Shown piece by piece: positions 1 to 62,300 of a DNA stretch of 64,000 bases. Origin of the DNA: Eledone cirrhosa (taxonomy: Eukaryota); the NCBI GenBank assembly GCA_964016885.1, contig OZ024743.1:172918001-172982000 (forward strand), in the 5' to 3' direction. Under the pieces are notes generated by a model. That model was not told the origin of the DNA. It ran no database searches and saw only the letters and a list, made by a program, of their open reading frames with translations. How positions within the stretch are numbered: the stretch's first letter is position 1; each line of letters begins with the position of its first letter. A program made the translations under genes and the position numbers.

Positions 1-2290
1 TTTCTTCTCTAGTTCAGCCATTGATTCGGCTATGAGCGTTAGATCATCTGCATATAGAAGTTCCCATGGGCAGCCGGTCTTGAACTCCTCCGTTATAGCT
101 TGGAGGCGATAATAAATAGGAGGGGTCTAAGGACACCAACTTTTACGCTAAACTCTTCACTAAATTCGTTGTTAATTCTAACCTTGCTGACTGTTTCTTT
201 ATACATGGCTTGTATAGCTCTCACAAGCCATTCATCTACACCTAGTTTTCTAAGAGCCCACCAGATAATAGAGCGGGGGACTCTGTCAAAGGCTTTATCC
301 AGGTCTACAAAAGCTAAGTTGAGGGGTTTACCTTTAGCTAGGTACTTCTGTAGTTGTCGTACAATGAAAAGTGTGTCTGTGGTACTTTTACCCGACACAA
401 ACCCGAACTGCATTTCATCTAGATCAATTCGCTCACTGATTAGTTGCGCTTTTTACTTTTTCTGTGACCTTCATGACCTGGTCAATTAATTTAATACCTC
501 TGTAGTTTCCCCTATCTAGGGCATCTCCTTTACCCTTGTAGCAGTTAATGATGACGCTGCTACGTCAGTCCTTTGGTATGACCCCATTCTGTATAACTTG
601 GTTTACTATCCCGGTGACCATAGTGTGTCCCACCGTTCCAGATGCTTTCAGCATTTCAGCAACTATTTCCGAAGGCCCAGCCGACTTGCCCGTCTTCATA
701 TCTTTGATTGCCTTACTTATTATACTACCTTCAACTTGCACTGCTGGTCGCTTTATTGGATCGATGTGGGGGAGGCTGTCTTTCTCCCATTTATTCGCCT
801 TTCGTAGTGACACTTCCAAGCTACCTTCTTATCAGCGTCAGTGATGGCAAGTACACCATCATCATTATGGACACACTTCTTCCCGACAATATTACGGTTC
901 TCCTCGACACATTGTCTAGCAATCCTGAACACCTCACGTTGTTGGTCCTCGCGTTGTAGAACATGCTTGAACTTTCTTTCCTCTGCTTCCCTTCTTGCGA
1001 AGTACACTTGTCTCCTAGCTTCCCTCCTACCCACTTCATAGTCTTCTCCACTTCCTCCATCCCGCCATACTTTCCAAGCCTGCTTTTTGGCCTTGATCGA
1101 CTCCTCCACCACCAAGTTACTCTCCTCCTGCCTATAGGTCTGCTCCAGCCACAGATTTCATCTGTCACCTTCAGCAGGTTAGCTTTCAGGAATTCCCACT
1201 GTTCCTCTATATTGTACGACTCTAATTGCTCTTCCTTACTGTCAAAAGCATCAAGTAATATGCTTTTAAATTTATTACTGGCTGTGGGGTCCTTTAACTT
1301 CCATATTTTTCTCCTAAGGATAGTACTCCTCTGTTGTCGAATACGTCTCATCCTGACTATGAGGTCGCTAACTATGAGTCTATGTTGGGAGGTGCATTCT
1401 TCATGGGGGAGGGATTTAGTGTTTACAACAGACACTCTGTCTCGTCTTCTGGTAAAGATATAATCTTTCTGACTGGCGTGTTCCCCTGATCTATAGGTGA
1501 TCAAGTGAGTACCAAACCCATAACTTCCATGAATTCCGTCATAGCCGTCACAGTGTTGTCCAACGTGACCATTTAGGTCGCCAGCAATAATTATATAATC
1601 ACTGTTGGTTATTTGGGAGGTAATGAGCATTAACGACTCATAGAATCTGTCTTTTATAATGCCAGGCAGTCCGGGTTGGGGTGCATACGCAGATATTATT
1701 GTCACAGTAGTTCTATTGAGGACAAGTCTTATTTTAATTATTCTGTCGTTCACTCTATTTATGTCTATTATCTTATCTACCCATTTTCCTGCTAGCATGA
1801 TTCCTACTCCACCCAGCCCATTGTCATTTCCCACCCAGAAAAGCTTATAGCATCGTTTTTTACCCACAATGAATCTAGCAGACCCACCCCTCCACCTGGT
1901 CTCTTGAATACAGCAAACATCAACCTCCTTACGTTCAAGCATCTCTACAACCTCGTTAGAGCGACCTTTTAAGGTACCTACATTCATGGTACCAACTCTG
2001 AAGTTTTGGATTGCGTTTGGTGGGTGGGAAGGACAGGGCGCAGGGAGGGGTGACAGGGCTACGTTAGCCGTCCGCGGCCTAAATAAAGAGGAGGAGTCCT
2101 TGCATTCTCGTCCGGCAGCATGAGGTGAATTTGTCTTTATCTTTGGCATTGTCACTGAGTGTCCAGATTTTTTCAGACTCTCCAGAAATCCGTAGTCCAT
2201 CCATCATATCGAAAGGCAAACAGGTCTAAACTTATGAAGTGATGACATAGGCCGCTGATTTATGATTGGTCCAAATAATAATGATGGTGA
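1..2290 (-). mobile_element. RTE-clade LINE, 5' portion (APE endonuclease and start of RT), frameshifted, runs off the window edge
   Basis: ORF 821..2200 has APE motifs (GTMNVGTL, CCIQETRW, SAYAPQ, AGDLNGHVG). Downstream fragments have RT motifs (QFGF, FVDLDKAFDRV). The 5' UTR is homologous to 58600-58760. Confidence 0.93.
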
Positions 2291-2307
2291 GTGGGGGGAG
2301 TTATCTG

Positions 2308-4361: not shown

Positions 4362-5075
4362 ATTATGAAGAGAGAAGAAACATTTAGATATAATTAGTAA
4401 TAAAATGTATCATACCTAAACTGCTCCTAAATTCCTCGACTACGTAGTTTCGTGGCATAAACAAAAACAATATATCAAAGATATAGAGTCCTTGCGAGGT
4501 CTGCCAACTTATCAAGAGGATACCTCATTTTACTAGTCTCAAGAACGCGTCTACACGACGTGAGAAAGAATCCCAAAAGGCGGAGGGGGAGATAGTCACG
4601 CGATATAACGGTCGAGAAACAGAGCTAAGCCTCTTATAACCACGAAGAAAATACCACGGAGGCGGAGGGGGTATTCATATCGAGGCCGTAGAAGAGGTAG
4701 TGAAGAAGGCGAGAAGTATGAGTAATGGAAGCTTTCCAGTTGTCCCCACACTTCAAAGATTGCTCGACCAGAGGGAGTTATTAATATATTTAGAAACACA
4801 CAGATACATGCGGACACACACATATATACATGAATGCATCCGCACCCAACTGTGAGTTAAGGGTGCCAACTTCACCGATGTTGCTCAATGAATGACTGGG
4901 ACAGACCAATTCAGTTTGAACCAGACTGAACCAGTATCAGAGTTAAAAATACATTATGAAGAGAGAAGAAACATTTAGATATAATTAGTAATAAAATGTA
5001 TCATACCTAAACTGCTCCTAAATTCCTCGACTACGTAGTTTCGTGGCATAAACAAAAACAATATATCAAAGATAT
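4362..5075 (-). mobile_element. Non-coding hammerhead-bearing element (retrozyme or Penelope pLTR-like) with ~120-bp terminal direct repeat
   Basis: 4362-4485 is repeated at 4953-5075 (period 591). It is flanked by (TA)n on both sides and has no ORF with homology. Confidence 0.72.
4433..4520 (-). ncRNA. Type I hammerhead ribozyme, U3-A8 core variant
   Basis: Minus strand reads TCCTC-TTGATAA-GTTGGCA...TGCCAC-GAAA-CTACGTAG-TC-GAGGA. Stem III is palindromic and the site is GUC. Confidence 0.8.
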
Positions 5076-5090
5076 ATATATATATATACA

Positions 5091-5152: not shown

Positions 5153-5191
5153 TATATATATATACATATATAGACACATATATATATACAC

Positions 5192-5224
<33 letters not shown>

Positions 5225-5441
5225 CATATATATACATACATAAACATATATATATATACATATATACACATACATAAACATATATATATATACATATATA
5301 CATACATATATAAACATATATATATATACATATATAAACATATATATATATACATATATACACATACATATATATATATATATACATATACATATACATA
5401 TATATATATACATATACGTCTATATACATATACATATATAC

Positions 5442-5472
<31 letters not shown>

Positions 5473-5550
5473 CATATATATATATACATATATATATATA
5501 CATATATATATATACATACATATATATATACATATATATATATATACATA

Positions 5551-5602
<52 letters not shown>

Positions 5603-5653
5603 CATATATATATACATATATATATATACATATATATATATACATATATATAT

Positions 5654-5700
<47 letters not shown>

Positions 5701-5713
5701 CATATATATATAC

Positions 5714-5744
<31 letters not shown>

Positions 5745-5753
5745 CATATATAC

Positions 5754-5802
<49 letters not shown>

Positions 5803-5885
5803 CATATATACATATATATATATACATATACACATATATATATATACATATATATATATATACATATATATACATATATATATAC

Positions 5886-5916
<31 letters not shown>

Positions 5917-6139
5917 CATATATATACATATATATATATATACATATATATATATACATATATATATATACATATATATACATATATATATATACATATA
6001 TATATATACATATATATATATACATATATATATATACATATATATATATACATATATATATATACATATATATACATATATATACATATATATATATATA
6101 CATATATATATATACATATATATACATATATATATATAC

Positions 6140-6176
<37 letters not shown>

Positions 6177-6219
6177 CATATATATATATACATATATATA
6201 CATATATATATACATATAC

Positions 6220-6250
<31 letters not shown>

Positions 6251-6287
6251 CATATATATATATACATATATATACATATATATATAC

Positions 6288-6328
<41 letters not shown>

Positions 6329-6461
6329 TATACATATATATATATACATATATATACATATATATATACATATATATTCATATATATATATATATACATA
6401 TATATTCATATATATATATATATATACATATATATTCATATATATATATATATATATATAC

Positions 6462-6602
<141 letters not shown>

Positions 6603-6709
6603 CATATATATACATATATATATATACATATATATACATATATATATACATATATATTCATATATATATATATATACATATATATTCATATATATATATA
6701 TATATATAC

Positions 6710-6788
<79 letters not shown>

Positions 6789-6921
6789 CATATATATACA
6801 TATATATATATATACATATATATACATATACATATATATACATATACATATATATATATATACGTATATATATATATACATATATATATATACATATATA
6901 TACATATATACATATATATAC

Positions 6922-6954
<33 letters not shown>

Positions 6955-6997
6955 CATATATATATATACATATATATATATAAATATATATATATAC

Positions 6998-7110
<113 letters not shown>

Positions 7111-7111
7111 C

Positions 7112-7178
<67 letters not shown>

Positions 7179-7191
7179 CATATATATATAC

Positions 7192-7306
<115 letters not shown>

Positions 7307-7315
7307 CATATATAC

Positions 7316-7346
<31 letters not shown>

Positions 7347-7393
7347 CATATATACATATATATATACATATATATATATATATACATATATAC

Positions 7394-7457
<64 letters not shown>

Positions 7458-7460
<3 letters not shown>

Positions 7461-8392
7461 AAAACAAATAACGAAACGAAATTAAATTTCGTTTCGTTTG
7501 TAACTCACTTTTGTATGACTGACGCTTAAACAATTAAGTTAAAAATGTACATCTACATATGCATACTGAAATACTAGTATGCATATGAATACACACACGT
7601 ATACATATGTAGATGTACCAAGTCTTTCACTGGTTACTTTACTGTGAGTAATCCAGCTATTCTGTATGTAAACACACAGACAAACCGGTTTTTAGAGTCA
7701 TACTGGTTTTTGAGGAAACACCTTTCCTCTATTACTCACATTAAAGTAACCAGTGAAAGACTTGGTACATCTACATATGTATACGTGTGTGTATTCATAT
7801 GCATACTAGTATTTCAGTATGCATATGTAGATGTACATTTTTAACTTAATTCTTTAAGCGTCAGTCATACAAAAGTGAGTTACAAACGAAACGAAATTTA
7901 ATTTCGTTTCGTTATTTGTTTTTATCGTCTCCGTTGAACCGGTACGTACTCACACTCTATGCAAATTAGTCTGCCCACTACTAATTTTCATAGAAAAAGC
8001 ATATAACGATATGTGCTTTTACGATTCTCCAGAAAGGCCGGTAGATAGGTAAATATAGCTGATGAGTTGTAACAACAACGAAACTAGTTCAATATTCCTT
8101 GTCTGGCTTTCTGAAGAATAGAGGAAAGGTGTTTCCTCAAAAACCAGTATGACTCTAAAAACCGGTTTGTCTGTGTGTTTACATACAGAATAGCTGGATT
8201 ACTCACAGTAAAGTAACCAGTGAAAGACTTGGTACATCTACATATGTATACGTGTGTGTATTCATATGCATACTAGTATTTCAGTATGCATATGTAGATG
8301 TACATTTTTAACTTAATTGTTTAAGCGTCAGTCATACAAAAGTGAGTTACAAACGAAACGAAATTTAATTTCGTTTCGTTATTTGTTTTTAT
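7458..8392 (+). mobile_element. Non-coding hammerhead-bearing element with inverted 5' copy and partial tandem duplication
   Basis: 7458-7733 is the reverse complement of 8117-8392. 7734-7925 is a direct repeat of 8201-8392 (period 467). It is embedded in (TA)n. Confidence 0.8.
8052..8096 (+). ncRNA. Minimal type I hammerhead ribozyme
   Basis: AATATAG-CTGATGA-GTTGT(AACA)ACAAC-GAAA-CTAG-TT-CAATATT. Stem III is the palindrome AACTAGTT. Stem I can extend via CAGAAAGGCCGG/CTGGCTTTCTG. Confidence 0.8.
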
Positions 8393-8504
8393 ATATACAT
8401 ATATATATACATATACATATATATATATACATATATATATATATACATATATATATATACATATATATATATATACATATATATATATACATATATATAT
8501 ATAC

Positions 8505-8551
<47 letters not shown>

Positions 8552-8658
8552 CATATATACATATATATATATACACATATATATATATATACATATATAC
8601 ATATATATATATACACATATATATATACACATATATATATACACATATATATATACAC

Positions 8659-8753
<95 letters not shown>

Positions 8754-8932
8754 CATATATATATATACATATATATATATACATATATATATATACATAT
8801 ATATATATACATATATACATATACATATATACATATATACATATATACATATATACATATACATATATACATATACATATATACATATATACATATATAT
8901 ATATACATATACATATATATATATATATATAC

Positions 8933-8991
<59 letters not shown>

Positions 8992-8994
8992 TAC

Positions 8995-9041
<47 letters not shown>

Positions 9042-9261
9042 CATATATACATATATATATACATATATATATACATATATACATATATATATATACATAT
9101 ATACATATACATATATATATATACATATATATATATACATATATATATACACATATATATACACATATATATATACATATATATATACATATATATATAC
9201 ATATACATATATATATACATATATATATACATATATATATACATATATATACATATATATA

Positions 9262-9870
9262 TGGTGGCTGCCAACTCGTTTTCGAGTACGGCCACTACTT
9301 CATATCCATGTAGGAGAACCTCTACCGATGCGCTGAATGACTGACTTTTTAGTCCAGCCAGCGACTTGAAAACTCTGGTACAAACACTACACTTGTGACA
9401 ATTATTGACACATAGTGCTAGGCCCATGGTACCATGTGACGACAAGTGCAGAGAGATCTCCAGATATAAAGCAATGCCTGTGCCGTGAAGCTTTTATAGT
9501 GAGCAAAGGCACTGCACAAAGCCAGTCCCACTCACTTAACCAAGATGATATTTACCAAAAAGAAGAACAAGTCAACATCATTGGATACCATCAGGGTTGC
9601 AGGTGTTATATCAGAGTTTTCCTTCTCCTAGAATTCTGCCTTGACAAAGGCTAAGGGGTCATCTCTCCCGGTGATTCTGGATGGCCATTGACTCTTAAGA
9701 GCTCCTTTGCCCTTTGACAGGTTTTGTTTTTAGTCCTGCAGGATGTCCAAAGTCACCCTCCTCACCAAGAAACCTTGGTGGGGTTGCCAGTTTAGTCGCC
9801 AACGACCCGACCATGGGACAGGTTGTACTGGGATACATGTTACCAGTAGCACCAACTGGTGACCTGACAA
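9262..9870 (-). mobile_element. ~600-bp non-autonomous, internally deleted RTE-like element
   Basis: Near-identical reverse complement of 29258-29860. It has an RTE-like 5' UTR motif (CTAGGAGAAGGAAAACTCTGA) and a terminal C2H2 remnant ([16 protein letters not shown]). Confidence 0.7.
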
Positions 9871-10456: not shown

Positions 10457-10572
10457 TGGTGGCTGCCAACTCGTTTTCGAGTACGGCCACTACTTTATAT
10501 CCATGTAGGAGAACCCCTACCGATGCGCTGAACGAGTGTGACTTTTCAGTCCAGCCAGCGACTTGAAAACTC
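10457..10572 (-). mobile_element. 5'-truncated copy of the 9262-9870 element
   Basis: Matches 9262-9375 and is flanked by (TA)n. Confidence 0.85.
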
Positions 10573-11744: not shown

Positions 11745-11808
11745 TATTTCGTTATATATATTTCTGGGATATCATTAAAAATATGGTATGCCTTCCTCAG
11801 ACAAAATA
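11745..11808 (-). ncRNA. Type I hammerhead ribozyme in island ~11703-12070
   Basis: Minus strand reads TATTTTGT-CTGAGGA-(imperfect stem II)-GAAA-TATATA-TA-ACGAAATA. Stem I is 8 bp and the site is AUA. Confidence 0.72.
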
Positions 11809-12844: not shown

Positions 12845-12906
12845 TTTTATTGGCTAACAATGTTTCTTCCTTACGTGTAACCGTAGGATTCATCAGAGCT
12901 ATAAAA
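12845..12906 (-). ncRNA. Type I hammerhead ribozyme in island ~12802-13480
   Basis: Minus strand reads TTTTATAGCT-CTGATGA-ATCCTACG(GTTACA)CGTAAGGAA-GAAA-CATTG-TT-AGCCAATAAAA. Confidence 0.7.
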
Positions 12907-33082: not shown

Positions 33083-33137
33083 ACTGCTATATATATTTCA
33101 GTGACAGCCATCTTTGGCTGTGACCTCTTCAGGCAGT
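33083..33137 (-). ncRNA. Type I hammerhead ribozyme (element ~33033-33255 or longer)
   Basis: Minus strand reads ACTGC-CTGAAGA-GGTCACAGCCA(AAGA)TGGCTGTCACT-GAAA-TATATA-TA-GCAGT. Confidence 0.85.
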
Positions 33138-33580
33138 TTGAATTAGTATGGTATAGACAAGTACATATGTTGTTTAGGTGTATAATATTGTCAATACTCT
33201 GATATGCCCAGTTCCTTGTTGGGTTGTTATTTCACTGAGTAACTGGAGTCATATATATATATGTATATACAACCAACATAAACTCAAAATATATATGTAT
33301 ATATATGTATATATTTATATGTATATACACAGTTCAAGAGTAACCAATCTTAAAGAGAGAGATGGAGATAGTAGATGAGAGGAGAGATTGTCGAGTTAGT
33401 TAGAAGCCAAAGCGTAAAGGCATGTGCTCAATGTGCAATATGCAGTAGAAAGCAGCTAGGTGGCTGGGTTCATGCAGAAGTTAGGTGCGCAGAGCTGGAA
33501 ATAACACCACAAACTTCACCAGGAAGACATTATTAAAAGATTGTCAACATATTTTAGTTTGATGTAAGGAATGTAGAGAA

Positions 33581-36500
33581 TCATCATCATCACCGTTTTA
33601 CGTCCGTTCTTCCACGCTAGCATGGGTTAGACGGGTTGTCCTGTTGTGTGCAGTGTCTGGTCGGCTGACCATGCCTTGCTCATACAGGAACTGATCTGGC
33701 TTGATTTCTACAGCTGGATGCCCTTCCTAACACCAACCTCATTTACAGTGAGTGCTGGGTGCTTTTTCGTGGTGCCTACACGTCCACTTTACAGTGTGGG
33801 CTGGGTGCTTTTTTGCCGTGGCACCTCCACGAACACCTTGCGGTGGGAGGCATATTGTTTATATGCTTCAGCATGTACCCATGGGAGGTCGGGTACTCTG
33901 TATTACTGCGTGAAGCCAGAAGTCACGGTCGTGTGTCATTGTCTTTGAGAGGTGTAATTGGGTAAGGTCGGCTTTTATCACCTCATCCCAGGTCATCTTG
34001 GGTCTCCCCACTCCGCGGTTTCCATCAACTTCTAGTGCTCTGCACCTTTTTATGCAGCTGTCATCCTTCATACGCATCACATGTCCATACCAGCGCAACC
34101 GCCTCTCCTGCACACAGCATTTGATTCCTCTTATGCTCAGTCTCTCTCACAATTCATTTATGCTTTGTCGTTCACGTATATTACTGTTAGACATCCATCG
34201 GAGCATGCAGGCTTCGTTTCTCTCTAATCTACGTAAGTCTTCCACCTTCAGCGCCCAGGTCTCACTACCATGCAACATCGCTGTTCGGATACACGCATCA
34301 TACAGTCTGCCTTTCATTCTGAGGGAGAAGCCTTTTGTAGTAGTTCCCTAAACTTCTTCCATCCCGTTCTTACCCTAGTTATTGTACTTTCTGAACACCC
34401 ACCTCCGTTGCTAATTCGGTCACCTAGGTAGCAGAAGCTGTCTACTGTTTCTACAGGGCCCTCCCAGAGATTGGTGGTACTTGTTTCCTGTGGCTGTTTG
34501 CTGCTTGCTGTTTCAGCACAGCTGCTGCATGTGAATCCTACATTCTTAATTAAGCTTCCTGAGATCCCGCTACATCTCTTGTGTACCCATTGTTTGCATT
34601 TGGGGCAGAGAATGGAGTTCCTACCTACACCTTTCCTACATACTGAGCAAGGCCATTTCCCTGAGGGGATCTGGGTTCTGTTTTCTCGTCTACTTACAAG
34701 GACCTTAGTCTTTGTCATGTTGACTTTGAGACCCTTTCTCTCTAGTCCCTGCTTCCAGGTTTGAAATTTATTCTCTAGTTCTATCATAGATTCAGCTATG
34801 AGTGCGAGGTCATCAGCATACAGGAGTTCTCATGGGCATCCGGTCTTAAATTCCTCCGTTATTGCCTGCATGAACAGGAGAGGGCTAAGAACAGAGCCCT
34901 GGTGGACCCCAACCTGTACGCTAAATTCCTCGCTATACTCATTGCTAATCCTAACTTTGCTGACTGCTCCCCTATACATGGCTTGTACCGCTTTCACAAG
35001 CCATTCATCTACTCCTAGTTTTCTAAGAGCCCACCAGATTACAGCACGTGGAACTCTGTCAAAAGCTTTCTCAAGGTCGACAAATACCAAGTAGACTGGC
35101 TTACTTTTAGCTAGGTACTTTTCCTGTAATTGCCTCACAAGGAAGAGGGCATCAGTGGTGCCTCTTCCTGGTACAAACCCAAATTGCATCTCGTCTATTT
35201 TCACCCGGTCCCTAATCAGCTGTGCTATAACTCTTTCTGTTACTTTCATGACCTGGTCCATCAACTTTATACCTCTATAGTTTCCTCTATCTAGTGCATC
35301 GCCTTTACCTTTGTAGCAGTTGACAATGATGCTACTGCACCAATCTTTTGGTATGGCCCCTTCTAGTATTACCTGGTTAACGATACGTGTGGTTATAGTG
35401 TGACCTACAGACCCAGATGCCTTCAGCATCTCGGCAGCTATACCCGATGGACCGGTTGCCTTCCCCATCTTCATATCTCTGATTGCCTTACTTACTACGC
35501 TGCCGCTGACTTGTACTGCTGGTCCCTCTATAGGGTCTACTTGGGGTAGGGTCTCTTCTTCCCATGCATTCTCCTCATTTAGTAATCTATCATAATGACT
35601 CTTCCATGCATCTTTCTTCTCAGCACTTGTGAGGGCAAGCTCACCTTTATCATTCCGGATACACTTCTCTCCAATGACATCACAACTATCTCTGACACAC
35701 TGCCTCACAATCTTGAATACCTCCTGTTTCTGGTCCTCACGTTGTAAAACATGCTTGAATTTTCTATCCTCTGCTTCCCTCCTAGCTAAGTATACTTGTC
35801 GCCTAGCTTCCCTCTTGGTCTCTATGTAATGTACCCTGCTCCCCCCGTTCTTCCATTCTTTCCATGCCTGTCTCTTGGCCTTGACTGCTTCATCTACCTT
35901 ATTGTTCCACCACCAAGTCACTCTCCTCCTGCTTGAGGTCTTACTCCAGCCACAGACCTCGTCCGTCGCCTCCAGTAAATTATTTTTTAGGAGCTCCCAG
36001 TTCTCTTCTACATTAAATGTCTCTATCTGTTCTTCTTTACTGTTGTAGGCGTTGAGTAAAATATCTTTAAATCTGTTACTGGTTGAGGGGACTTTCAGCT
36101 TCCAGATCTTTCTTCTCCAGGTTGGCCTCTGTTTCAGGGCTCCTCTAGTTCTGAACGTGAGGTCGCTGACAACTAAGCTATGTTGGGATGTACATTCCTC
36201 ACTAGGGAAGGCTTTTGTGTTTACGACCGTCCATCTGTCACGTCTTCTGATGAGGATAAAATCTAACTGACTAGAGTGCTCCCCTGATCTATATGTGATC
36301 AGGTGGTTGTCGGGTTTTTTAAAGTTTGTGTTACATATCGACATGTCATTGGCGTCACAGAATTCTAGAAGTCTGAATCCTTCCTCATTCCTTGTGCCAA
36401 CTCCATGGCCTCCATGTACTCTATTGAAGCCGTCGCAGTGTTTACCTACGTGTCCGTTAAAATCTCCTGCGATGATTAGGAAGTCCTTGTCGTCTGTTAG

Positions 36501-36724
36501 AGTAGTAGTGTGTATTAGGGACTCGTAAAACCTATCCTTAAGTTCGTCTGGCAGCCCCGATTGGGGTGCGTAAGCTGATATTATTGTGGTAATTGTCTTA
36601 TTCAGGACTAGTCTGAGTTTAATGATTCTTGCATTTGCCCTGTACACTGAGATTACTTTATCTACCCACTTGTCAGCTAATAGTATACCTACACCACCCA
36701 TCCCATCGTCATTTCCCACCCAGA
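33581..36724 (-). mobile_element. RTE LINE, 5'-truncated, second subfamily (APE C-terminus, RT, 3' UTR, GAT tail)
   Basis: 629-aa ORF 34830..36719 plus frameshifted downstream ORFs. YADD motif near 34810 and (CAT)n at 33581. Confidence 0.95.
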
Positions 36725-36737
36725 ATAATAATAATAA

Positions 36738-37836
36738 TGAATGGCTTGTGAGTTATATACAAGCCATGTATAAAGAAACAATCAGCAAGGTTAGAATTAT
36801 CAACAAATATAGTGAAGAATTTAGCGTAAAAGTTGGTGTTCATCAGGGCTCTGTCCTTAGCCCCCTCCTATTTATTATTGCCCTTCAGGCCATAACAGGA
36901 GTTCAAGACCGGCTGCCCATGGGAACTTCTCTATGCAGATGATCTAACGCTCATAGCTGAATCAATGGCTGAACTAGAGAAGAAATTCCAAACATGGAAG
37001 TTCAGAGAACTTATACCACTATTGGCCGCTAAAGGTTTCTCTATAAAAATGAAAGGCAGACTGTATGATGCCTATATACGAACAGCAATGTTACATGGCA
37101 GTGAGACATGGGCATTGTGTGCAGAGGACCTGCACAGATTGGAGAGGAATGAAGCATGCATGCTCCGTTGGATGTGTAATACTAATATACAAGAACGGCA
37201 AACCATAAATGAACTAAGTGAGAAATTAGGACTAAGAGGGATCAGATGCTGTTTACTCGAGAGAAGACTACGTTGGTATGCTCACGTGATGCACATGAAA
37301 GACGACAGATGTATAAAAAAGTGCAGGGCGATCAAAATTGATGGAAGTTACGGAGTAGGTAGACCCCAAAAAACCTGGGACGATTTGATAAATTCCAACC
37401 TTACACACTTACACCTCTCTAAGACAATGTCACTAGACTGAGATCTTTGGCGCTACGCCTTGCCTATGTACAAAGCGAAACCTACAGTCAGTAGGCACCT
37501 CTTAACCAAATATACACTCCTCCCACCAACACCACCCTTTCTCTGTAAAGTTATATTGGTACCAAAACATCCAGTCCAAAATGAATGAGGTTGTGTAGGT
37601 GTCACGACAAAAAAACACAGTCCACGCTGTAATGTGGCCGTGTAGGTAACACGGTAAAATCCTCCCAGTTCACATTGTAAACGTGGTTGGTATTAGGAAG
37701 GGCATCCAGCCATAGAGAACCTGCCAGACAGTCCTATATGGGCGAGACAAGGTCACCCGACCAATCTTGCTTCAAGTGAGACAATTCCCGTCTAAACCGA
37801 TGTTTGCGTGGAAGATAGATGTTAAACGATGATGAT
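36738..37836 (+). mobile_element. RTE LINE 3' fragment with internal deletion, head-to-head with the previous copy
   Basis: Reads GVHQGSVLSPLLF, YADD, RRLRWYAHV. The Cys-rich segment is missing (FQTWK joins FRELIP). An (AAT)n junction lies at 36724-36738. Confidence 0.92.
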
Positions 37837-37919
37837 ATATGTATATATATATATATATATATATAAAATAAAATGTGTAAGTCAAACATGTTAAAATTGG
37901 CTTCGTTTATTCTAATTCT

Positions 37920-37972
37920 CTGCTATATATATTTCAGTGACAGCCATTATTGGCTGTGACCTCATCAGGCAG
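37920..37972 (-). ncRNA. Type I hammerhead ribozyme, same family as 33083-33137
   Basis: Minus strand reads CTGC-CTGATGA-GGTCACAGCCA(ATAA)TGGCTGTCACT-GAAA-TATATA-TA-GCAG. Flanks 37865-38090 are homologous to 33033-33255. Confidence 0.85.
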
Positions 37973-38559
37973 TAAGAATTGATGTAGAAAAAACAGGTAA
38001 ACATGGTGTTGTAATGTGTTCCACTATTAATTCATCAATATGTCCTGCTCCTGGGTGTGTTGTTAGTCCTCAGAGGAACTGGAATCATATGAGCAAGAAC
38101 AAACAAATTTTAGCCTCAGAGGACACGTTCCCACCTCATTGGTCAGCTACCATACCACTCCCCAACTGAAAGTCTATAGAAATTCTTCAGAAACAGGTCA
38201 GCAACCATGGTAGGCTGCTGTTATGATAGGAAGAATTTATGCCTGTCGGCAAAAAAACTGGGCATTTCCCTTAGTAGGGAAATGTTGCTCGGCACTATTG
38301 TAGAAGGCAGTGTTCGTGGAAGAGCTCGAAGTCCATGGTTTCCATTCCTCCATACATATGTGTGTGTGTATTCTGTTTTCATTATTATTATTTTTAATTT
38401 TCACCAATAGAGACCAGGTTTCTAACAGAAAAGCTGTTTCATTGGAAAACACCAACTAGGTAATTATGTATGTGTGTGCAGGTATGGATGTTTCTTTCAT
38501 ATGTGGGTCGGTTTAAGTTATATGTGCACATAGACATATTTCTATATCTATGCATATGT

Positions 38560-48870: not shown

Positions 48871-49293
48871 AAAAATCTTTAAAATATACTCGTAAGAATT
48901 AAATACAAAAAAGTTTCAGTCCAAAACAAAAGCAAGCTATTTGAAATTATATATTTTTGAAAAATAGACGTGAATGTTCTCAAAGATTTGATCTCAGTCG
49001 AAAAAGCTTTTTTTTTTAAATTCTATATTTCACTGTTAACTGTTGTAATATTTTGAGTGGCTGGACAATTCTACAATTCAAACTGTAAAGTCAAAATACA
49101 AAAGATGCAAAATATGAAGAATTTCTTACTTTTCTCTGGAATCACAAACTCAAGGGAAAAATAGTACCTTGCAAAATAAAGTGCCTTGATCACAAACTTA
49201 GTTGCAACGAATGAATTGAGATGCTTAGTGACAGTGAGCAAACAATGTCTGTATCCCTTATATATAGATAGATAGATAGATAGATACACACAT

Positions 49294-49630
49294 GGAGGCA
49301 CATGGCTTAGTGGTTAGAGCATTGGCCTTGCAATCGAAAGGTTATGAGTTCAATTCTCAGACCGGGTGATGTGTTGTTTCCTTGAGCAAGACACTTTATT
49401 TCACATTGCTCCAGTTTACTCAGCTGTAGAAATGAGATGATAGGGACTGGGGTCCATATTCCACTGCAAAGAGGTCATGGAGGTGCCACGGCAAAAAAAG
49501 CACCCAGCACTCACTGTAAATGAGGTTGGTGTTAGGAAGGGCATCCAGCTGTAGAAATCAAGCCAGAATCGGTTCTCATCCCACCCTTGCAAGCAGGGAA
49601 AAGCAGACGTAAAGTGATGATGATGATGAT
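49294..49630 (+). mobile_element. tRNA-head SINE with RTE-derived 3' tail
   Basis: A-box TGGCTTAGTGG and B-box GAGTTCAATTC. The tail CCCACCCTTGCAAGCAGGGAAAAGC(A/G)GACGTAAA(GAT)n matches the LINE end at 22042-22106. Confidence 0.85.
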
Positions 49631-50794: not shown

Positions 50795-51060
50795 GGAGGC
50801 ACAAGGCTTAGTGGTGAGAGCATTGGGCTTGCAATCGAAAGGTTGTGAGTTCAATTCTCAGACTGGGTGATGTGCATGGATGATGAATGCTGGGTGAAGA
50901 AGTGCCAGGAAATCCCAATGGAATGAAGCTGCGGTAGAGGTAGATCAAGAAAGGCCTGGTCAGAGGTGGTGAGAGCTGATCTGAAGAAGACACACAGGGA
51001 GTGGAGAGATGTCGTGCTGAGAAGGACTCATGCAAGCGTGGAAAAGTGAACGTAAAAAAA
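50795..51060 (+). mobile_element. Chimera of SINE tRNA head and RTE ORF 3' end
   Basis: 50795-50872 matches the SINE head at 49294. The rest matches the RTE end at 21849-22075. Confidence 0.75.
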
Positions 51061-52289: not shown

Positions 52290-53493
52290 GTAAGTATTGT
52301 GATCTTTTTAAAACCCAAAAAATTCATCATTCATGCCCAACAGTGGGGACAATTATTTAAAAAATGTTCCTTTTGTTTTCCAATTTAATTCCTTTTTTCC
52401 TTACTCTTTTTTCTCTTTCTTTCTTGTCATATATATTGTACTTACTACTGGATATTTTGTATTACACTCTATATGATGTTTCTCAAAAAAAGAAAAAAAT
52501 TAAAGTTTAAAATTGGAAAATAATCAAGATATGAGAATTTTGTAATTGAAATATGGCCAATCATCATCATCTCAAACATGGGATAGATAGATTGTCATAT
52601 TCTGATACCAGACAGCTCAGATGATCATACCCTGCTCATATATTCGAGTTTGGCATGGTTTCTACAGCTGGAGAGAGATTCTTAACACCAACCACTTTAT
52701 AGCATGTGTTGGGTGCATTTTGTCGTGGCACTGACACTACCACTACAGAGTAGGCTGGATGCATTTAATCGGAGCATTATCTTTACCATTTTACAAAGTG
52801 AGCTGGATGTCTTTTATCAAGGCACCAGTACTACTACTTTACAGAGTAGGTTAGATGCATTTATCATAGCAACAGTGCTACCACTTGCAAAATGCATTGC
52901 ACTGTGGCAATAATACTAAGGTGATCGTTGCATCCTCAAGCAAGCAGAGAGAGAGGCAGTGATAAAAGGGTAGAGAGTATGAGAGCATGGCAAAAGTGGC
53001 ACTGTAGAAGCAGTGGATTTGGTAGATTGAAACTGTAGGAAGCCTATTGTGTATGTATATATGCCAGTTGCTGTGAACCACACAGTTGTTTAATATATCT
53101 GGTGGTGTTGCAATGTGATAAATGTTAAGAGAATAATGTATGGTATGGTCTCCAAAGGGGCATACAGCCGTAGAAAAAATTGCCAGAAAAGAGATCTCAT
53201 TTAACTCGTGCAAGGATATCCATTTTTCCATGATGATGATCATCATTACCATTTTACATCTGTTTTCCCTGCTGGTATAGGTTGGAAGGATTTTCACACT
53301 CTGAGACTAGAGGGGTCAGTGAAACAGTTTGCTCATATGTTACATTTTTGGCATAGTCTCTCAAGCTGGATGACTTTCCTAACACCAACCACTTTACAAA
53401 GTGTACTAGGTGCATTTTATCATGGCACTAACATCACCACCCTGAGTTTTACTGAGTGCATTTTATGTATGATGTTTGTGTGCATGTGTATAT

Positions 53494-53829
53494 GGAGGCA
53501 CATGGCTTAGTGGTTAGAGTATTGGCCTTGCAATCGAAAGGTTGTGAGTTCAATTCTCGGACCGGATGATGTGTTGTTTCCTTGAGCAAGACACTTTATT
53601 TCACATTGCTCCAGTTTACTCAGCTGTAGAAATGAGATGATAGGACAGGGGTCCATATCATTCCACTGCAAAGTGCTTGTGGAGATGCCACGGCAAAAAA
53701 TCACCCAGCACTCACTGTAAATGAGGTTGGTGTTAGGAAGGGCATCCAGCTGTAGAAATCAAGCCAGAATCAGTTCCCGTCCCACCCTTGCAAGCAGGGA
53801 AAAGCGGACGTAAAATGATGATGATGATG
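53494..53829 (+). mobile_element. tRNA-head SINE with RTE-derived 3' tail (second copy, intronic in RBX1)
   Basis: Near-identical to 49294-49630. Confidence 0.87.
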
Positions 53830-58539: not shown

Positions 58540-61500
58540 GTGGACCAATCATAAGCCAGAGACCCCCCCCCCCCCCACACGCATCACCGTTATTATTATA
58601 AGCCAGAGACCCCCCCCCCACACGCATCACCATTATTATTATTACGCGGACCAATCATAAGCCAGAGGCCTATATTATTGCTTGCACGGTTGCCTTCGAT
58701 ATATGATGGATGGTTGGATGGATGGACGGACTGCGGAATCCTGGAGAGTGGAAGGGAGAGAAAAATCTGGACGCTCAGAGCGAAAATGCCAATGTTAAAG
58801 TCAAATTCACCTCGTGGACGAGAATGCGAGCACTCTTCTTTGTTTCGCCTGCGGATGGCTAACATAACCCCATCTCCCCCCGCCCCTCACCACCCCCACC
58901 CTCCAAACGCGATCCAAAACTTCAGAGTTGGTACCATAAATGTAGGCACCCTAAAGGGTCGCGCTAACGAGGTTGTAGAAATGCTTGAACGTAAGGAGGT
59001 CGATGTTTGTTGTATTCAAGAGACCAGGTGGAGGGGTGGGTCTGCTAGATTCATTGAGGGTAAAAAACGATGTTATAAGCTTTTCTGGGTGGGAAACGAC
59101 GATGGGCTGGGTGGAGTAGGAATCATGGTAGCAGAAAAGTGGGCAGATAAGATAATAGACGTAAATAGAGTGAACGACAGAATAATTAAAATACGACTTG
59201 TCCCCAATAGAACTACGGTGACAGTAATATCTGCGTACGCACCCCAATCCGGACTGCCCGGCACTATAAAAGACAGATTCTATGAGACACTGATGCTCAC
59301 TACCTCCCAAATATCTGACAGTGACTATATAATTATTGCAGGCGACCTAAATGGTCACGTTGGGCAACATTGTGACGGCTACGACGAAATCCATGGAGGC
59401 TATGGGTTTGGTACTAGAAATGAGGAAGGCTCCAGAATCCTGGAATTCTGTGATGCAAATAACCTAACTATCTGTAACACTAACTTCAAAAAACGTGACA
59501 ATCACCTGATCACCTATAGATCCGGGGAACACACAAGCCAGGTAGATTATATCCTTACCAGAAGACGTGACAGAGTGTCTGTTGTAAACACTAAATCCCT
59601 CCCCCATGAAGAATGCACCTCGCGACCTCATAGTCAGGACGAGACGTACTCGACAGCAGAAGAGGACTATCCTCAGGAGAAAAATATGGAAGCTAAAGGA
59701 CCCCACATACAAAAATAAATTTCAAAACATATTACTTGATGCTTTCGACAGTAAGGAAGAACATTTAGAGTCGGACAATATAGAGGGACAGTGGGAATTT
59801 CTGAAAGCAAACCTGCTGTTGGCGACAGACGAAGTCTGTGGCTGGAGCAGGCCTCTAGGCAGGAGGAGAGTAACATGGTGGTGGAACAGTAAGGTGGAGG
59901 GGTCAATTAAGGCCAAAAAGCAGGCTTGGAAAGTATGGCGGGATGGGGGAAGTAGAGTAGACTATCAAGTGGCCAGGAGGGAAGCTAGGAGAGAAGTGTA
60001 CTTAGCAAGAAGGGAAGCTGAGGAAAGAAAGTTCAAGCATGTCCTACAACGCGATGACCAAAAACGTGAGGTGTTCAGGATTGCTAGGCAATGCGTCAAG
60101 GAAAACCGTGATATTGTCGGGGAGAAGTGTGTACTTAACGATGATGGCATACTTGCCATCACCGACACTGATAAGAAGGTAGCTTGGAAGTGTCACTATG
60201 AAAGGCTACTAAATGAGGAGAATAAATGGGAGAAAGAAAGTCTCCCCCATGTCGACCCAATAGAGGGACCAGCAGTGTTAGTCGAGGGGAGTATAATAAG
60301 TAAGGCAATCAAGGATATGAAGACAGGTAAGGCGGCTGGGCCTTCGGAAATAGTTGCTGAGATGCTGAAGGCATCTGGCACGGTGGGACACACCATGGTC
60401 ACCCGCATAGTTAACCAAGTCGTACAGAATGGGGTTGTTCCGAAGGACTGGCATAGCAGCATCATCGTTAACTGTTATAAGGGTAAAGGAGACGCCCTAG
60501 ATAGGAGTAACTATAGAGGCATTAAATTAATCGACCAGGTCATGAAGGTCACGGAAAAAGTAATAGCGCAACTAATCAGAGAGAGAATTGACCTAGATGA
60601 AATGCAGTTCGGGTTTGTGTCAGGCAAAAGTACCACAGACGCTCTTTTCATAGTACGACAACTACAGGAGAAGTTCCTAGCTAAAGGTAAACCCCTCTAC
60701 TTAGCTTTTGTCGACTTGGAGAAAGCCTTCGACAGAGTCCCCCGCTCCATTATCTGGTGGGCTCTTAGAAAACTAGGCGTTGACGAATGGCTTGTGAGGG
60801 CTATACAAGCCATGTATAAAGAAACAGTCAGCAAGGTTAGAATTAACAACGAATATAGTGAAGAGTTTAGCGTAAAAGTTGGCGTCCATCAGGGCTCTGT
60901 TCTCAGCCCCCTACTATTTATTATTGCCCTTCAGGCTATAACAGAGGAGTTCAAGACAGGCTGCCCATGGGAACTCCTATACGCAGACGACCTGACACTC
61001 ATAGCGGAATCAATGGCCGAGCTAGAGAAGAAATTCCAAACATGGAAGCACGGCCTAGAGTCAAAAGGACTTAAAATTAACCTGGCTAAGACCAAAGTTC
61101 TAGTTTGTAGGAAAGAAAACAAGGCGGCGGTCCCTTCTGGGAAATGGTCGTGCTCGGTGTGTAGGAAAGGCGTAGGTAGAAACTCCATTTTATGTACTAA
61201 ATGCAAAGTATGGGTGCATAAAAGATGTAGTGGGATCACAGGTAAGCTAACTAAGAAGATAGATTTTACATGTGGCCGGTGTTCTGGTGCAATAAGTAGC
61301 AGCAAGTGCCCACAAAATACTAGCTCTTTCAATTGCGCAGAGGGTTCTATAGAAATAGTGGACAGCTTCCGTTACCTGGGCGATAAAATCAGCAGTGGGG
61401 GAGGGTGCTCTGAAAGTACTGTAGCTAGAGTCAGAACTGGTTGGAAAAAGTTCAGAGAGCTTATACCACTATTAGCTGCTAAAGGGTTCTCCCTAAAAAT

Positions 61501-62300
61501 GAAAGGCAGGTTGTACGATGCCTGCATATGAACAGCAATGTTGCATGGCAGTGAGACCTGGGCATTGTGTGCAGAGGATATACGCAGACTAGAGAGGAAC
61601 GAAGCTTGCATGCTCCGCTGGATGTGTAACAGTAATATACGTGAACAGCAAAGCATAAACGAACTAAGGAAAAAATTAGAGATAAGAGGGATCAGATGTT
61701 GTTTACTCGAGAGAAGGCTACGTTGGTATGGACACGTGATGCGCATGAAAGTCGATAGCTGTATAACAAAGTGCAGGGCAATAAAGATAGACGGTAGCCA
61801 CGGAATAGGCAGACCTAGAAAAATCTGGGGCGAGCTGATAAACTCCGACCTCACACACTTACACCTCTCCAAGACAATGTGACTGGACCGAGACCTTTGG
61901 CGGTACTCAGTAACAGAGAAGACCCGCCTTGCCAGTAGGCATCTCTAACAAAATACACCCCGTCCCGCCACCACCCCCACCCATCCACACCATCCCGTCC
62001 TATGTAAAGTTATGTTGGTGCCGCGCCATCGAGGCCGAAACAAATGAGATCGTGTAGGTGTCACGACAAAAAAACACACAGTCCACGCTGTAATGTGGCC
62101 GTGTAGGCAACACGGTAAAAACCTCCCAGACCCACACTGTAAATGTGGTTAGTGTTAGGAAGGGCATCCAACTGTAGAAAACCTGCCAGACAGTCCTATG
62201 CGAGCAAGACAATCACTCTTGCCTCAAGTGGGACTACCCCCGTCCAAACCCATGCAAGCGTGGAACACGGACGTTAAACGTTGATGATGATGATGATGAT
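58540..62300 (+). mobile_element. Near full-length RTE LINE (APE, RT, 3' UTR, GAT tail), recently inactivated
   Basis: ORFs 58678..59718, 59606..61531 and 61538..61882. Lesions are a deletion frameshift near 59622, a CGA>TGA stop at 61529 and a TCA>TGA stop at 61880. Confidence 0.97.

What the first reader, a model, noticed from the sequence alone, without database searches (positions are those of the whole stretch)
7458..8392. Highly structured 467-bp ribozyme unit with direct redundancy and an inverted 5' arm
Seen: the order is inverted arm (276 bp), direct partial repeat, unique segment with hammerhead, then repeat. The unit is packed with hairpins: ACGAAACGAAAT/ATTTCGTTTCGT, GTACATCTACATATG/CATATGTAGATGTAC, ATATGCATACT/AGTATGCATAT and GAGGAAA/TTTCCTC. 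The arms are nearly identical, so the insertion is young. Inference: this is a viroid-like branched RNA integrated by a Penelope-type mechanism.
Basis: partly seen in the sequence, partly recalled or inferred. Interest (0 to 1): 0.72.

Follow-up and report, generated by a model that had tools for sequence, protein, structure and literature searches.

The report
Penelope-inserted hammerhead retrozyme copy
This is a young genomic copy of a small self-cutting RNA parasite of a known kind (a retrozyme); it carries the insertion marks of a Penelope-type retrotransposon, the helper long suspected of moving such RNAs.

Summary
The anatomy is real. 7458-7733 is the exact reverse complement of 8117-8392. 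7731-7925 repeats 8198-8392 (193/195). 7926-8392 is a 467-bp non-coding unit with one type I hammerhead (core 8059-8089). The unit folds far better than shuffles (z about -9 to -10). It sits inside a (TA/TACA)n array with the same polarity on both sides.

Public reads show a multicopy family. 3' ends at the 8392-equivalent run into (TA)n in 12 contigs, the head-to-tail junction recurs, and both sides of a helix II pair change in similar numbers of reads.

It is best read as a new family of animal non-LTR retrozyme, a known class. The inverted 5' arm, partial tandem and TA targeting are described Penelope-like-element (PLE) hallmarks; I did not find them reported for retrozymes. A truncated PLE 17 kb away has the same layout. 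Some copies carry clustered A>G changes, one cluster in a DNA library, suggesting ADAR-edited RNA was reverse-transcribed.

Not shown: circular RNA, self-cleavage, and the inversion in raw reads. This copy has a private mismatch in helix I and only one ribozyme.

The parts
5174..7457 (.). Left flank: (TA/TACA)n array, the insertion target
   Evidence: 178 C vs 2 G on + strand
7458..7733 (-). Inverted, 5'-truncated copy (276 bp) of the unit's 3' part; its 3' end faces outward into the TA array
   Evidence: 276/276 identical to 8117-8392
7731..7733 (.). 3-nt microhomology joining the inverted arm to the direct partial copy
7731..7925 (+). 5'-truncated direct copy (195 bp), the pseudo-LTR-like partial tandem
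   Evidence: 193/195 identical to 8198-8392
7926..8392 (+). Full 467-bp retrozyme unit: GC 35%, 67% paired as a circle, longest Met-ORF 22 codons
7963..8020 (+). Two hairpins 5' of the ribozyme (7963-7987, 7995-8020)
8030..8113 (+). Type I hammerhead: extended bulged helix I; core 8059-8065; helix II 8066-8079; 8080-8083 GAAA; palindromic 6-nt helix III 8083-8088; predicted cut after 8089 (GUU). Private mismatch at 8057 opposite 8091
   Evidence: variants
8121..8138 (+). 7-bp hairpin; the inverted arm ends just 5' of it (8117-equivalent)
8232..8303 (+). Long hairpin followed by a U-rich run; the minor family 3' end lies at the 8318-equivalent
   Evidence: 6 X1 contigs run into (TA)n behind 7851 (table 7)
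8352..8392 (+). 13-bp terminal hairpin and U-rich end: the main family 3' end, 303 nt downstream of the predicted cut
   Evidence: 12 X1 contigs run into (TA)n behind 7925 (table 7)
8393..9263 (.). Right flank: (TA/TACA)n array with the same polarity as the left flank
   Evidence: 77 C vs 0 G
25120..28515 (-). Context: truncated Penelope-like element (RT thumb, Cys linker, C-terminal GIY-YIG) with a 921-bp inverted arm, a 210-bp partial tandem and minimal hammerheads; same layout as the finding
33034..33288 (-). Context: TA-flanked element with a PLE-type minimal hammerhead; its last 50 nt resemble the retrozyme's last 50 nt

Best explanation
A young dispersed insertion of a non-autonomous, non-LTR retrozyme, made by the enzymes of an endonuclease-bearing Penelope-like element (PLE). 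SHOWN: a multicopy 467-nt non-coding, highly self-paired unit with a type I hammerhead; preferred U-rich 3' ends abutting (TA)n; here 1.42 units in sense plus a 276-bp inverted arm. INFERRED: (1) Read-through transcripts of copies with two ribozymes self-cleave, probably as dimers given the palindromic helix III, and are ligated to circles. (2) A PLE GIY-YIG endonuclease cuts a (TA)n array. (3) The PLE reverse transcriptase primes from one target end just 3' of the terminal hairpin and copies 662 nt, straight through the uncut ribozyme site; this needs a circular or uncleaved multimeric template. (4) The other target end primes at the same site and copies 276 nt. (5) The two cDNAs join at a 3-nt microhomology. 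Transcripts of such inverted-arm copies would form long dsRNA, an ADAR substrate, which would explain A>G clusters in some DNA copies. This copy, with one ribozyme and a helix I mismatch, is probably a dead end. Sub-odds: retrozyme moved by a PLE 0.85; circular template 0.65; ADAR footprint real 0.55.
For: Anatomy and junction. Hammerhead. In run X24 both sides of the helix II pair 8067/8078 change in 269/438 and 264/414 reads, so at least part of the reads must carry both changes. At 8057 all laid copies in 4 of 4 runs carry the pairing base, and at 8114 nearly all do. Fold z -9 to -10. 998 contigs laid in X1; 12 + 6 of them end in (TA)n at two fixed places. The head-to-tail junction is bridged by contigs in X4 and X17 and crossed by continuous read depth in X24. 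PLE hallmarks as described in PMC8557442: partial tandem, adjacent inverted 5'-truncated copy, (TA)n bias. A PLE remnant with the same layout lies in the window (tblastn E 1e-16 to 1e-18). 7 hammerhead motifs in 9 kb of TA-array islands vs 0.055 expected, maximum 1 in 200 shuffles. A>G: 7 rows at 8142-8161 with 111-113 reads each in DNA library X24; 19 of 20 minor A>G sites follow T or A vs 67% of all A (P 0.002; 13 of 14 with runs collapsed, P 0.024).
Against: No strand-changing joint was listed. That test was weak: the 1% floor hides single-locus joints, and this locus may be absent from those samples. Circular RNA and cleavage are unshown. The Rfam score is below gathering. The cut site is GUU and forcing the active fold costs 10.9 kcal/mol in this copy. 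This locus fails the two-ribozyme criterion of bioRxiv 2026.07.22.740005. Family variants break predicted pairs only slightly less than chance (5 of 38 vs 8.2+/-1.7, P 0.06). No A>G over T>C bias in X1 (13 vs 11, P 0.38) and a weak one in X24 (30 vs 20 after dropping three majority sites, P 0.08). Depletion of 5' G alone is marginal (0 of 20, P 0.04; 0 of 14, P 0.11). The A>G cluster has one read start (one locus or one molecule), is not phased, and only 40 of 104 variant rows were shown. The unit has no similarity to the neighbouring PLE remnant's end.
Confidence: 0.75

Rival explanations
1. A non-autonomous PLE derivative that moves as linear read-through RNA from partial tandems (like MRC1 of Chlamydomonas). 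The hammerhead is a passenger and no circle is needed.
For: A transcript spanning two units gives the same 1.42-mer. The 3' ends follow a hairpin and U-run, like a terminator. The middle copy differs at 2 places from the 3' copy. PMC8557442 describes non-autonomous PLEs with pLTRs and head-to-tail insertions. 8 of 9 frog retrozyme dimers did not cleave in vitro.
Against: The whole unit, not only its end, is strongly folded (z -9 to -10). Ribozyme helices I and II are kept paired in other copies. The two middle-copy letters are absent or nearly absent from the family in X1 (0 of 19,008 and at most 51 of 470,131 depth), so they look private rather than inherited from a second unit.
Confidence: 0.13
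2. The family is real but the inverted arm is an assembly or chimeric-read artefact, or a later DNA-level inverted duplication.
For: The arms are 100% identical and all 4 private differences fall in the 383 bp between them (post hoc P 0.03). No strand-changing joint was listed. The locus lies in hard-to-assemble TA arrays.
Against: Both flanks have the same TACA polarity (178 C/2 G and 77 C/0 G); a fold-back would invert one. The arm begins at the family's 3' end. The junction is asymmetric with a 3-nt microhomology. The PLE remnant at 25120-28515 has the same layout.
Confidence: 0.06
3. An endogenised copy of a self-replicating viroid-like circular RNA that passes between hosts and is only captured by PLE enzymes.
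For: Runs X4 and X17, labelled as two other organisms, each hold the unit as one unbranched circular contig (496 and 503 letters with 30-letter terminal overlap; depth 4.5 and 10.2) without flanks. They differ from the window by 12 and 21 substitutions, with A>G excess (3 vs 0 and 8 vs 1 T>C after dropping majority sites).
Against: Ribozyme in one polarity only. Many genomic copies in organism A. The library kind of X4 and X17 is not on record. One partial-tandem DNA copy whose links to (TA)n were pruned in assembly would give the same circle (inference from recalled assembler behaviour); X17's depth of 10.2 is close to that of another short contig in the run (8.2). Cross-contamination is possible.
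Confidence: 0.06

Closest known systems
Metazoan non-LTR retrozymes (coral, mussel, axolotl; PMC7229834; reviewed in PMC7761336)
   Same: Small non-coding AT-rich unit, type I hammerhead, highly self-paired fold, many genomic copies, head-to-tail junction. The weak palindromic helix III resembles axolotl HHR_Amex1, which cleaves well only as a dimer.
   Different: 467 bp vs about 170-400 nt described there. Here a dispersed 1.42-mer with an inverted arm in (TA)n, not a tandem array. 'inverted', 'inversion', 'microsatellite' and 'truncated' do not occur in the main text of PMC7229834; its supplement could not be read. Circles and cleavage were shown there, not here.
Vertebrate non-LTR retrozymes as PLE derivatives (bioRxiv 10.64898/2026.07.22.740005)
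   Same: Same conclusion on the helper; unit length within their 51-972 bp range; monomeric and partial copies are common.
   Different: Their evidence is co-occurrence and pLTR similarity, and they discuss local tandem expansion from a PLE terminus. Here the evidence is the shape of a new insertion. This locus would fail their two-ribozyme filter.
EN+ Penelope-like elements (Neptune, Nematis, Hydra, Naiad; PMC8557442)
   Same: Partial tandem, adjacent inverted 5'-truncated copy, (TA)n target, hammerhead upstream of a fixed 3' end.
   Different: No RT or GIY-YIG ORF. The ribozyme has a long bulged helix I and lies 303 nt from the 3' end, against about 43-118 nt for the other hammerhead-bearing ends in the window. 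No 30-40 bp tail seen.
Hammerhead viroids and viroid-like satellite RNAs
   Same: Size class, branched fold, hammerhead, no protein.
   Different: Genome-encoded, type I ribozyme, one polarity only; no evidence of RNA-to-RNA replication.

Membership tests
Non-LTR retrozyme | Type I hammerhead ribozyme in the unit | tested here: met
   Rfam HH9 E 7e-7 but 35 bits, below 52; complete core with helices I-III; paired variants in other copies
Non-LTR retrozyme | Small, non-coding, GC below 50% | tested here: met
   467 bp, GC 35%; longest Met-ORF 19 and 22 codons on the two strands of the doubled unit
Non-LTR retrozyme | Highly self-paired monomer | tested here: met
   z -10.3 linear, -9.3 circular, 67% paired
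Non-LTR retrozyme | Multicopy family with head-to-tail junctions | tested here: met
   998 contigs in X1; junction bridged by contigs in X4 and X17 and crossed by reads in X24
Non-LTR retrozyme | At least two complete ribozyme-bearing units in tandem ('active' by the 2026 preprint), at this locus | tested here: not met
   1.42 units and one hammerhead. The locus is a partial copy; whether the family has full dimers was not testable without the genome
Non-LTR retrozyme | Accumulates as circular RNA in tissue | tested here: inconclusive
   Unbranched circular contigs in X4 and X17, but library kind not on record and a DNA explanation exists
Non-LTR retrozyme | Self-cleavage in vitro | not testable with these tools
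   Bench assay needed
PLE-type insertion | 5'-truncated direct copy ahead of a full copy (pLTR) | tested here: met
   7731-7925 ahead of 7926-8392
PLE-type insertion | Adjacent inverted 5'-truncated copy flanking the unit | tested here: met
   7458-7733 in the assembly; not confirmed in raw reads
PLE-type insertion | Insertion bias for (TA)n | tested here: met
   Both flanks; 12 + 6 X1 contigs end in (TA)n
PLE-type insertion | 30-40 bp tail at one end | tested here: inconclusive
   Both ends are flush with the array; a tail of TA sequence would be invisible
PLE-type insertion | 3' end shared with an autonomous partner | tested here: inconclusive
   36 of 51 columns with the end at 33034, P 0.0007-0.012 before correcting for 8 comparisons; that element has no ORF in the window; no similarity to the ORF-bearing remnant
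Autonomous PLE | RT plus GIY-YIG ORF | tested here: not met
   tblastn with two PLE proteins hits only 26439-27553
Hammerhead viroid (Avsunviroidae-like) | Ribozymes in both polarities and no DNA counterpart | tested here: not met
   Only the + strand has a motif; many DNA copies. The family definition is recalled

The most novel reading that the evidence does not exclude
The 467-nt circle is an actively cycling, ADAR-hyperedited RNA whose edits are written back into the germline genome by a Penelope reverse transcriptase, and near-identical circles occur in other species because the RNA moves between hosts: an animal viroid-like agent caught in the act of endogenisation. The milder part alone (edited RNA intermediates fixed in DNA copies by PLE-type insertion, no host jumping) I put at about 0.5, with interest about 0.7.
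Probability: 0.07. Interest if true: 0.9.

Novelty: new variant of a known kind. Interest (0 to 1): 0.55.

Why it matters
Which retrotransposon moves animal retrozymes, and how, is open. A 2020 review says their repeats show no motif pointing to the helper (PMC7761336). The 2026 preprint rests on co-occurrence and pLTR similarity and says the precise mechanisms remain to be elucidated. A young copy with all three PLE insertion marks, a preferred priming site 303 nt past the ribozyme cut and more than one unit of cDNA is what reverse transcription of a circle by a PLE predicts. The family is a small, protein-free substrate for studying how PLEs make inverted arms, which PMC8557442 lists as unresolved. 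If the A>G clusters are ADAR edits, DNA copies record the strand and editing state of the RNA intermediate.

Tried and rejected
No whole genome is held, so no genome-wide census of copies, arms or helpers was possible.

No RNA holder listed. 20 of the 24 listed runs hold some of the unit's words; I laid only 4, and the other rows are not used.

The 'goes back' joints 8197 to 7732-7756 only restore the unit across the edge of my permuted reference. They are not head-to-tail evidence; the real junction is 7925/7926.

The depth dip over 8035-8082 in X1 could suggest 5' ends at the cut site. Rejected: three window-specific mismatches lie there and summed contig depth is no copy number.

A hammerhead pattern scan gave 2 metagenome hits and 0 viral hits. 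Both hits share only the pattern with the unit.

Co-folding two ribozyme copies did not predict the dimeric form; nearest-neighbour folding is a poor test of this.

Rfam miRNA and sRNA hits are sub-threshold matches to AT-rich hairpins.

Variant-versus-structure test: P 0.06, with 38 of the 40 shown rows; 7741 and 7852 were dropped as private to the middle copy.

The second partial tandem at 4364-5076 shows no hammerhead.

Three look-ups of earlier scan findings returned nothing.

I read them as RT plus GIY-YIG from motifs in the alignment (motif names recalled).

Full report
OBSERVATION. The insert lies between two (TA/TACA)n tracts. Self-comparison gives 7458-7733 as the exact reverse complement of 8117-8392, 7731-7925 as a 193/195 copy of 8198-8392, and no second copy in the window. 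The inverted and direct parts share 3 nt. Both outer ends are the unit's 3' end facing the array. The flanks have the same strand polarity (178 C/2 G left, 77 C/0 G right), as expected for one array split by an insertion and not for a fold-back artefact. The unit folds at z -10.3 linear and z -9.3 circular. It is 35% GC and has no Met-ORF over 22 codons.

RIBOZYME. The + strand holds a type I hammerhead: core 8059-8065, helix II 8066-8079, palindromic 6-nt helix III 8083-8088, predicted cut after 8089. Rfam HH9 matches at E 7e-7 but below its gathering score. There is none on the minus strand. The window copy has a mismatch at 8057/8091 in helix I, and forcing the active fold costs 10.9 kcal/mol.

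FAMILY. No genome was held. I laid 4 of 24 listed runs on the permuted monomer 7731-8197: X1 and X24 (organism A, two studies; X24 is a DNA RAD library), X4 (organism B) and X17 (organism N). X1 gave 998 contigs, 844 of them at least 95% alike; the copy number is not determined. Twelve contigs leave the unit at 7925 (= 8392) and six at 7851 into (TA)n; 101 loose-end rows were not shown. The head-to-tail junction 7925/7926 is bridged by contigs in X4 and X17 and crossed by continuous depth in X24. At 8057 every laid copy in all four runs has the pairing base, so the window's letter is private or an assembly error; 7741, 7852 and 8114 are also private or nearly so. In X24 both sides of helix II pair 8067/8078 change in 269 of 438 and 264 of 414 reads, and the 7733/7748 pair also changes on both sides (tables 3 and 5c; not phased). 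Overall the shown variants break pairs only slightly less often than chance (5 of 38 vs 8.2, P 0.06). No strand-changing joint was listed, but the 1% floor hides single loci, so the inversion is neither confirmed nor refuted.

A>G SIGNAL. 23 of the 40 shown variant rows (of 104) are A>G. Seven rows at 8142-8161 have 111-113 reads each, one start and 14 other differences in the cleanest read, in a DNA library. 8086, 8115, 8149 and 8181 may belong to the same copy; this is not phased. Of 20 minor A>G sites 19 follow T or A (background 67%; P 0.002; 13 of 14 with runs collapsed, P 0.024) and none follows G (P 0.04 and 0.11). Clusters of A>G with 5'-G depletion are the ADAR signature (PMC2873906, passages). 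Strand bias is absent in X1 (13 A>G vs 11 T>C), weak in X24 (33 vs 20) and clear in the single X17 contig (10 vs 1; 8 vs 1 after dropping majority sites, P 0.017). The cluster lies in A-runs predicted unpaired in the monomer but inside the span of this locus's inverted arm, whose transcript would form 273 arm-to-arm pairs. Inference: inverted-arm loci make long dsRNA, ADAR edits it, and edited RNA is reinserted.

FLANKLESS CIRCLES. X4 and X17 each hold the unit as one contig with 30-letter terminal overlap and no flank. The library kind is not on record. Circular RNA, a single partial-tandem DNA copy with pruned TA links, or contamination could each explain this. I draw no conclusion on expression.

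CONTEXT. A structural scan finds 8 hammerhead-like motifs in the window, 7 with palindromic helix III. Seven lie in 9 kb of islands within TA arrays against 0.055 expected. 25120-28515 is a truncated PLE. Its two frames match RT-thumb and C-terminal GIY-YIG regions of two 724-745 aa proteins (tblastn E 1e-16 to 1e-18; Pfam GIY-YIG E 0.005, below cut-off), with a Cys-rich linker of the Neptune/Nematis type (motif as described). It has a 921-bp inverted arm and a 210-bp partial tandem: the same layout. The retrozyme's last 50 nt align end to end with the 3' end of the hammerhead-bearing element at 33034 (36 of 51 columns; P 0.0007-0.012 over three scorings, 8 ends compared; 0 of 2042 other windows scored as high). 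The sequence is AT-rich, so this is a lead only. The host is an animal; its arrays and SINE ends resemble what I recall from octopus genomes, which no call tested.

MECHANISM. Shown: structured unit, ribozyme motif, multicopy family, preferred 3' ends in (TA)n, 662 nt of contiguous sense copy crossing an intact cut site, inverted arm. Inferred: cleavage and ligation to a circle, PLE endonuclease cut in (TA)n, priming from both target ends at the same site, more than one round of copying on one side, and microhomology joining. An uncleaved read-through template cannot be excluded.

COMPARISON. The unit fits metazoan non-LTR retrozymes (PMC7229834, parts 2-4 of 6 read, and keyword passages; supplement unreadable, and it may show insertion structures). 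bioRxiv 10.64898/2026.07.22.740005 (parts 1-3 of 5 and passages; supplements closed) argues they derive from PLEs. PMC8557442 (passages) describes the partial tandem, inverted copy and (TA)n bias for PLEs. PMC7761336 and PMC5680766 were seen as passages. The 2014 paper on PLE hammerheads was not read. In ten searches of the held open-access library (listings only, apart from the papers named) I found no report of inverted-arm or TA-targeted retrozyme insertions, of a cephalopod retrozyme, or of ADAR-type changes in retrozyme DNA copies; subscription journals are not covered.

VERDICT. A real feature. It works like, and at family level belongs with, non-LTR retrozymes; this locus is a partial, probably inactive copy. 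The new part is the PLE insertion anatomy and the possible editing footprint. New variant of a known kind; interest 0.55.

Noticed in passing
window 25120-28515: Truncated C-terminal-endonuclease Penelope-like element with a 921-bp inverted arm (99.2%), a 210-bp partial tandem and a minimal hammerhead in each arm; the ORF is broken into two frames.
   Followed up: yes
window 4364-5076: 591-bp unit with a perfect 122-bp terminal redundancy, TA-flanked. The minus strand folds at -176.9 vs -140.6+/-6.8 in 15 rough shuffles. No hammerhead found; possibly another non-autonomous PLE-type element.
   Followed up: partly
window 11745-11808, 12848-12904, 21273-21317, 33080-33140, 37916-37976 (all minus strand): Further PLE-type minimal hammerheads, each about 45-120 nt from a U-rich end abutting a TA-rich array. 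The TA arrays look like a hotspot for several PLE families.
   Followed up: partly
window 9264-9869, 10459-10572, 29259-29859: Three copies (94-99% alike) of another TA-flanked repeat of about 600 bp that share one end; not identified.
   Followed up: no
window 1-2298, 33882-36752, 58555-62290 and fragments: LINE copies with AP endonuclease, RT and a C-terminal PHD-finger match (Pfam).
   Followed up: no
window 50805-50861: tRNA-like match at the Rfam gathering score, in a repeat shared with 49292-49373 and 53489-53573; probably a SINE head.
   Followed up: no
window 21582-21781: 200-N assembly gap; the TACA polarity of the arrays flips across it.
   Followed up: no
runs X4 and X17 laid on 7731-8197: The unit appears as a single flankless circular contig in two other organism labels, with A>G-rich differences; unexplained.
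   Followed up: partly
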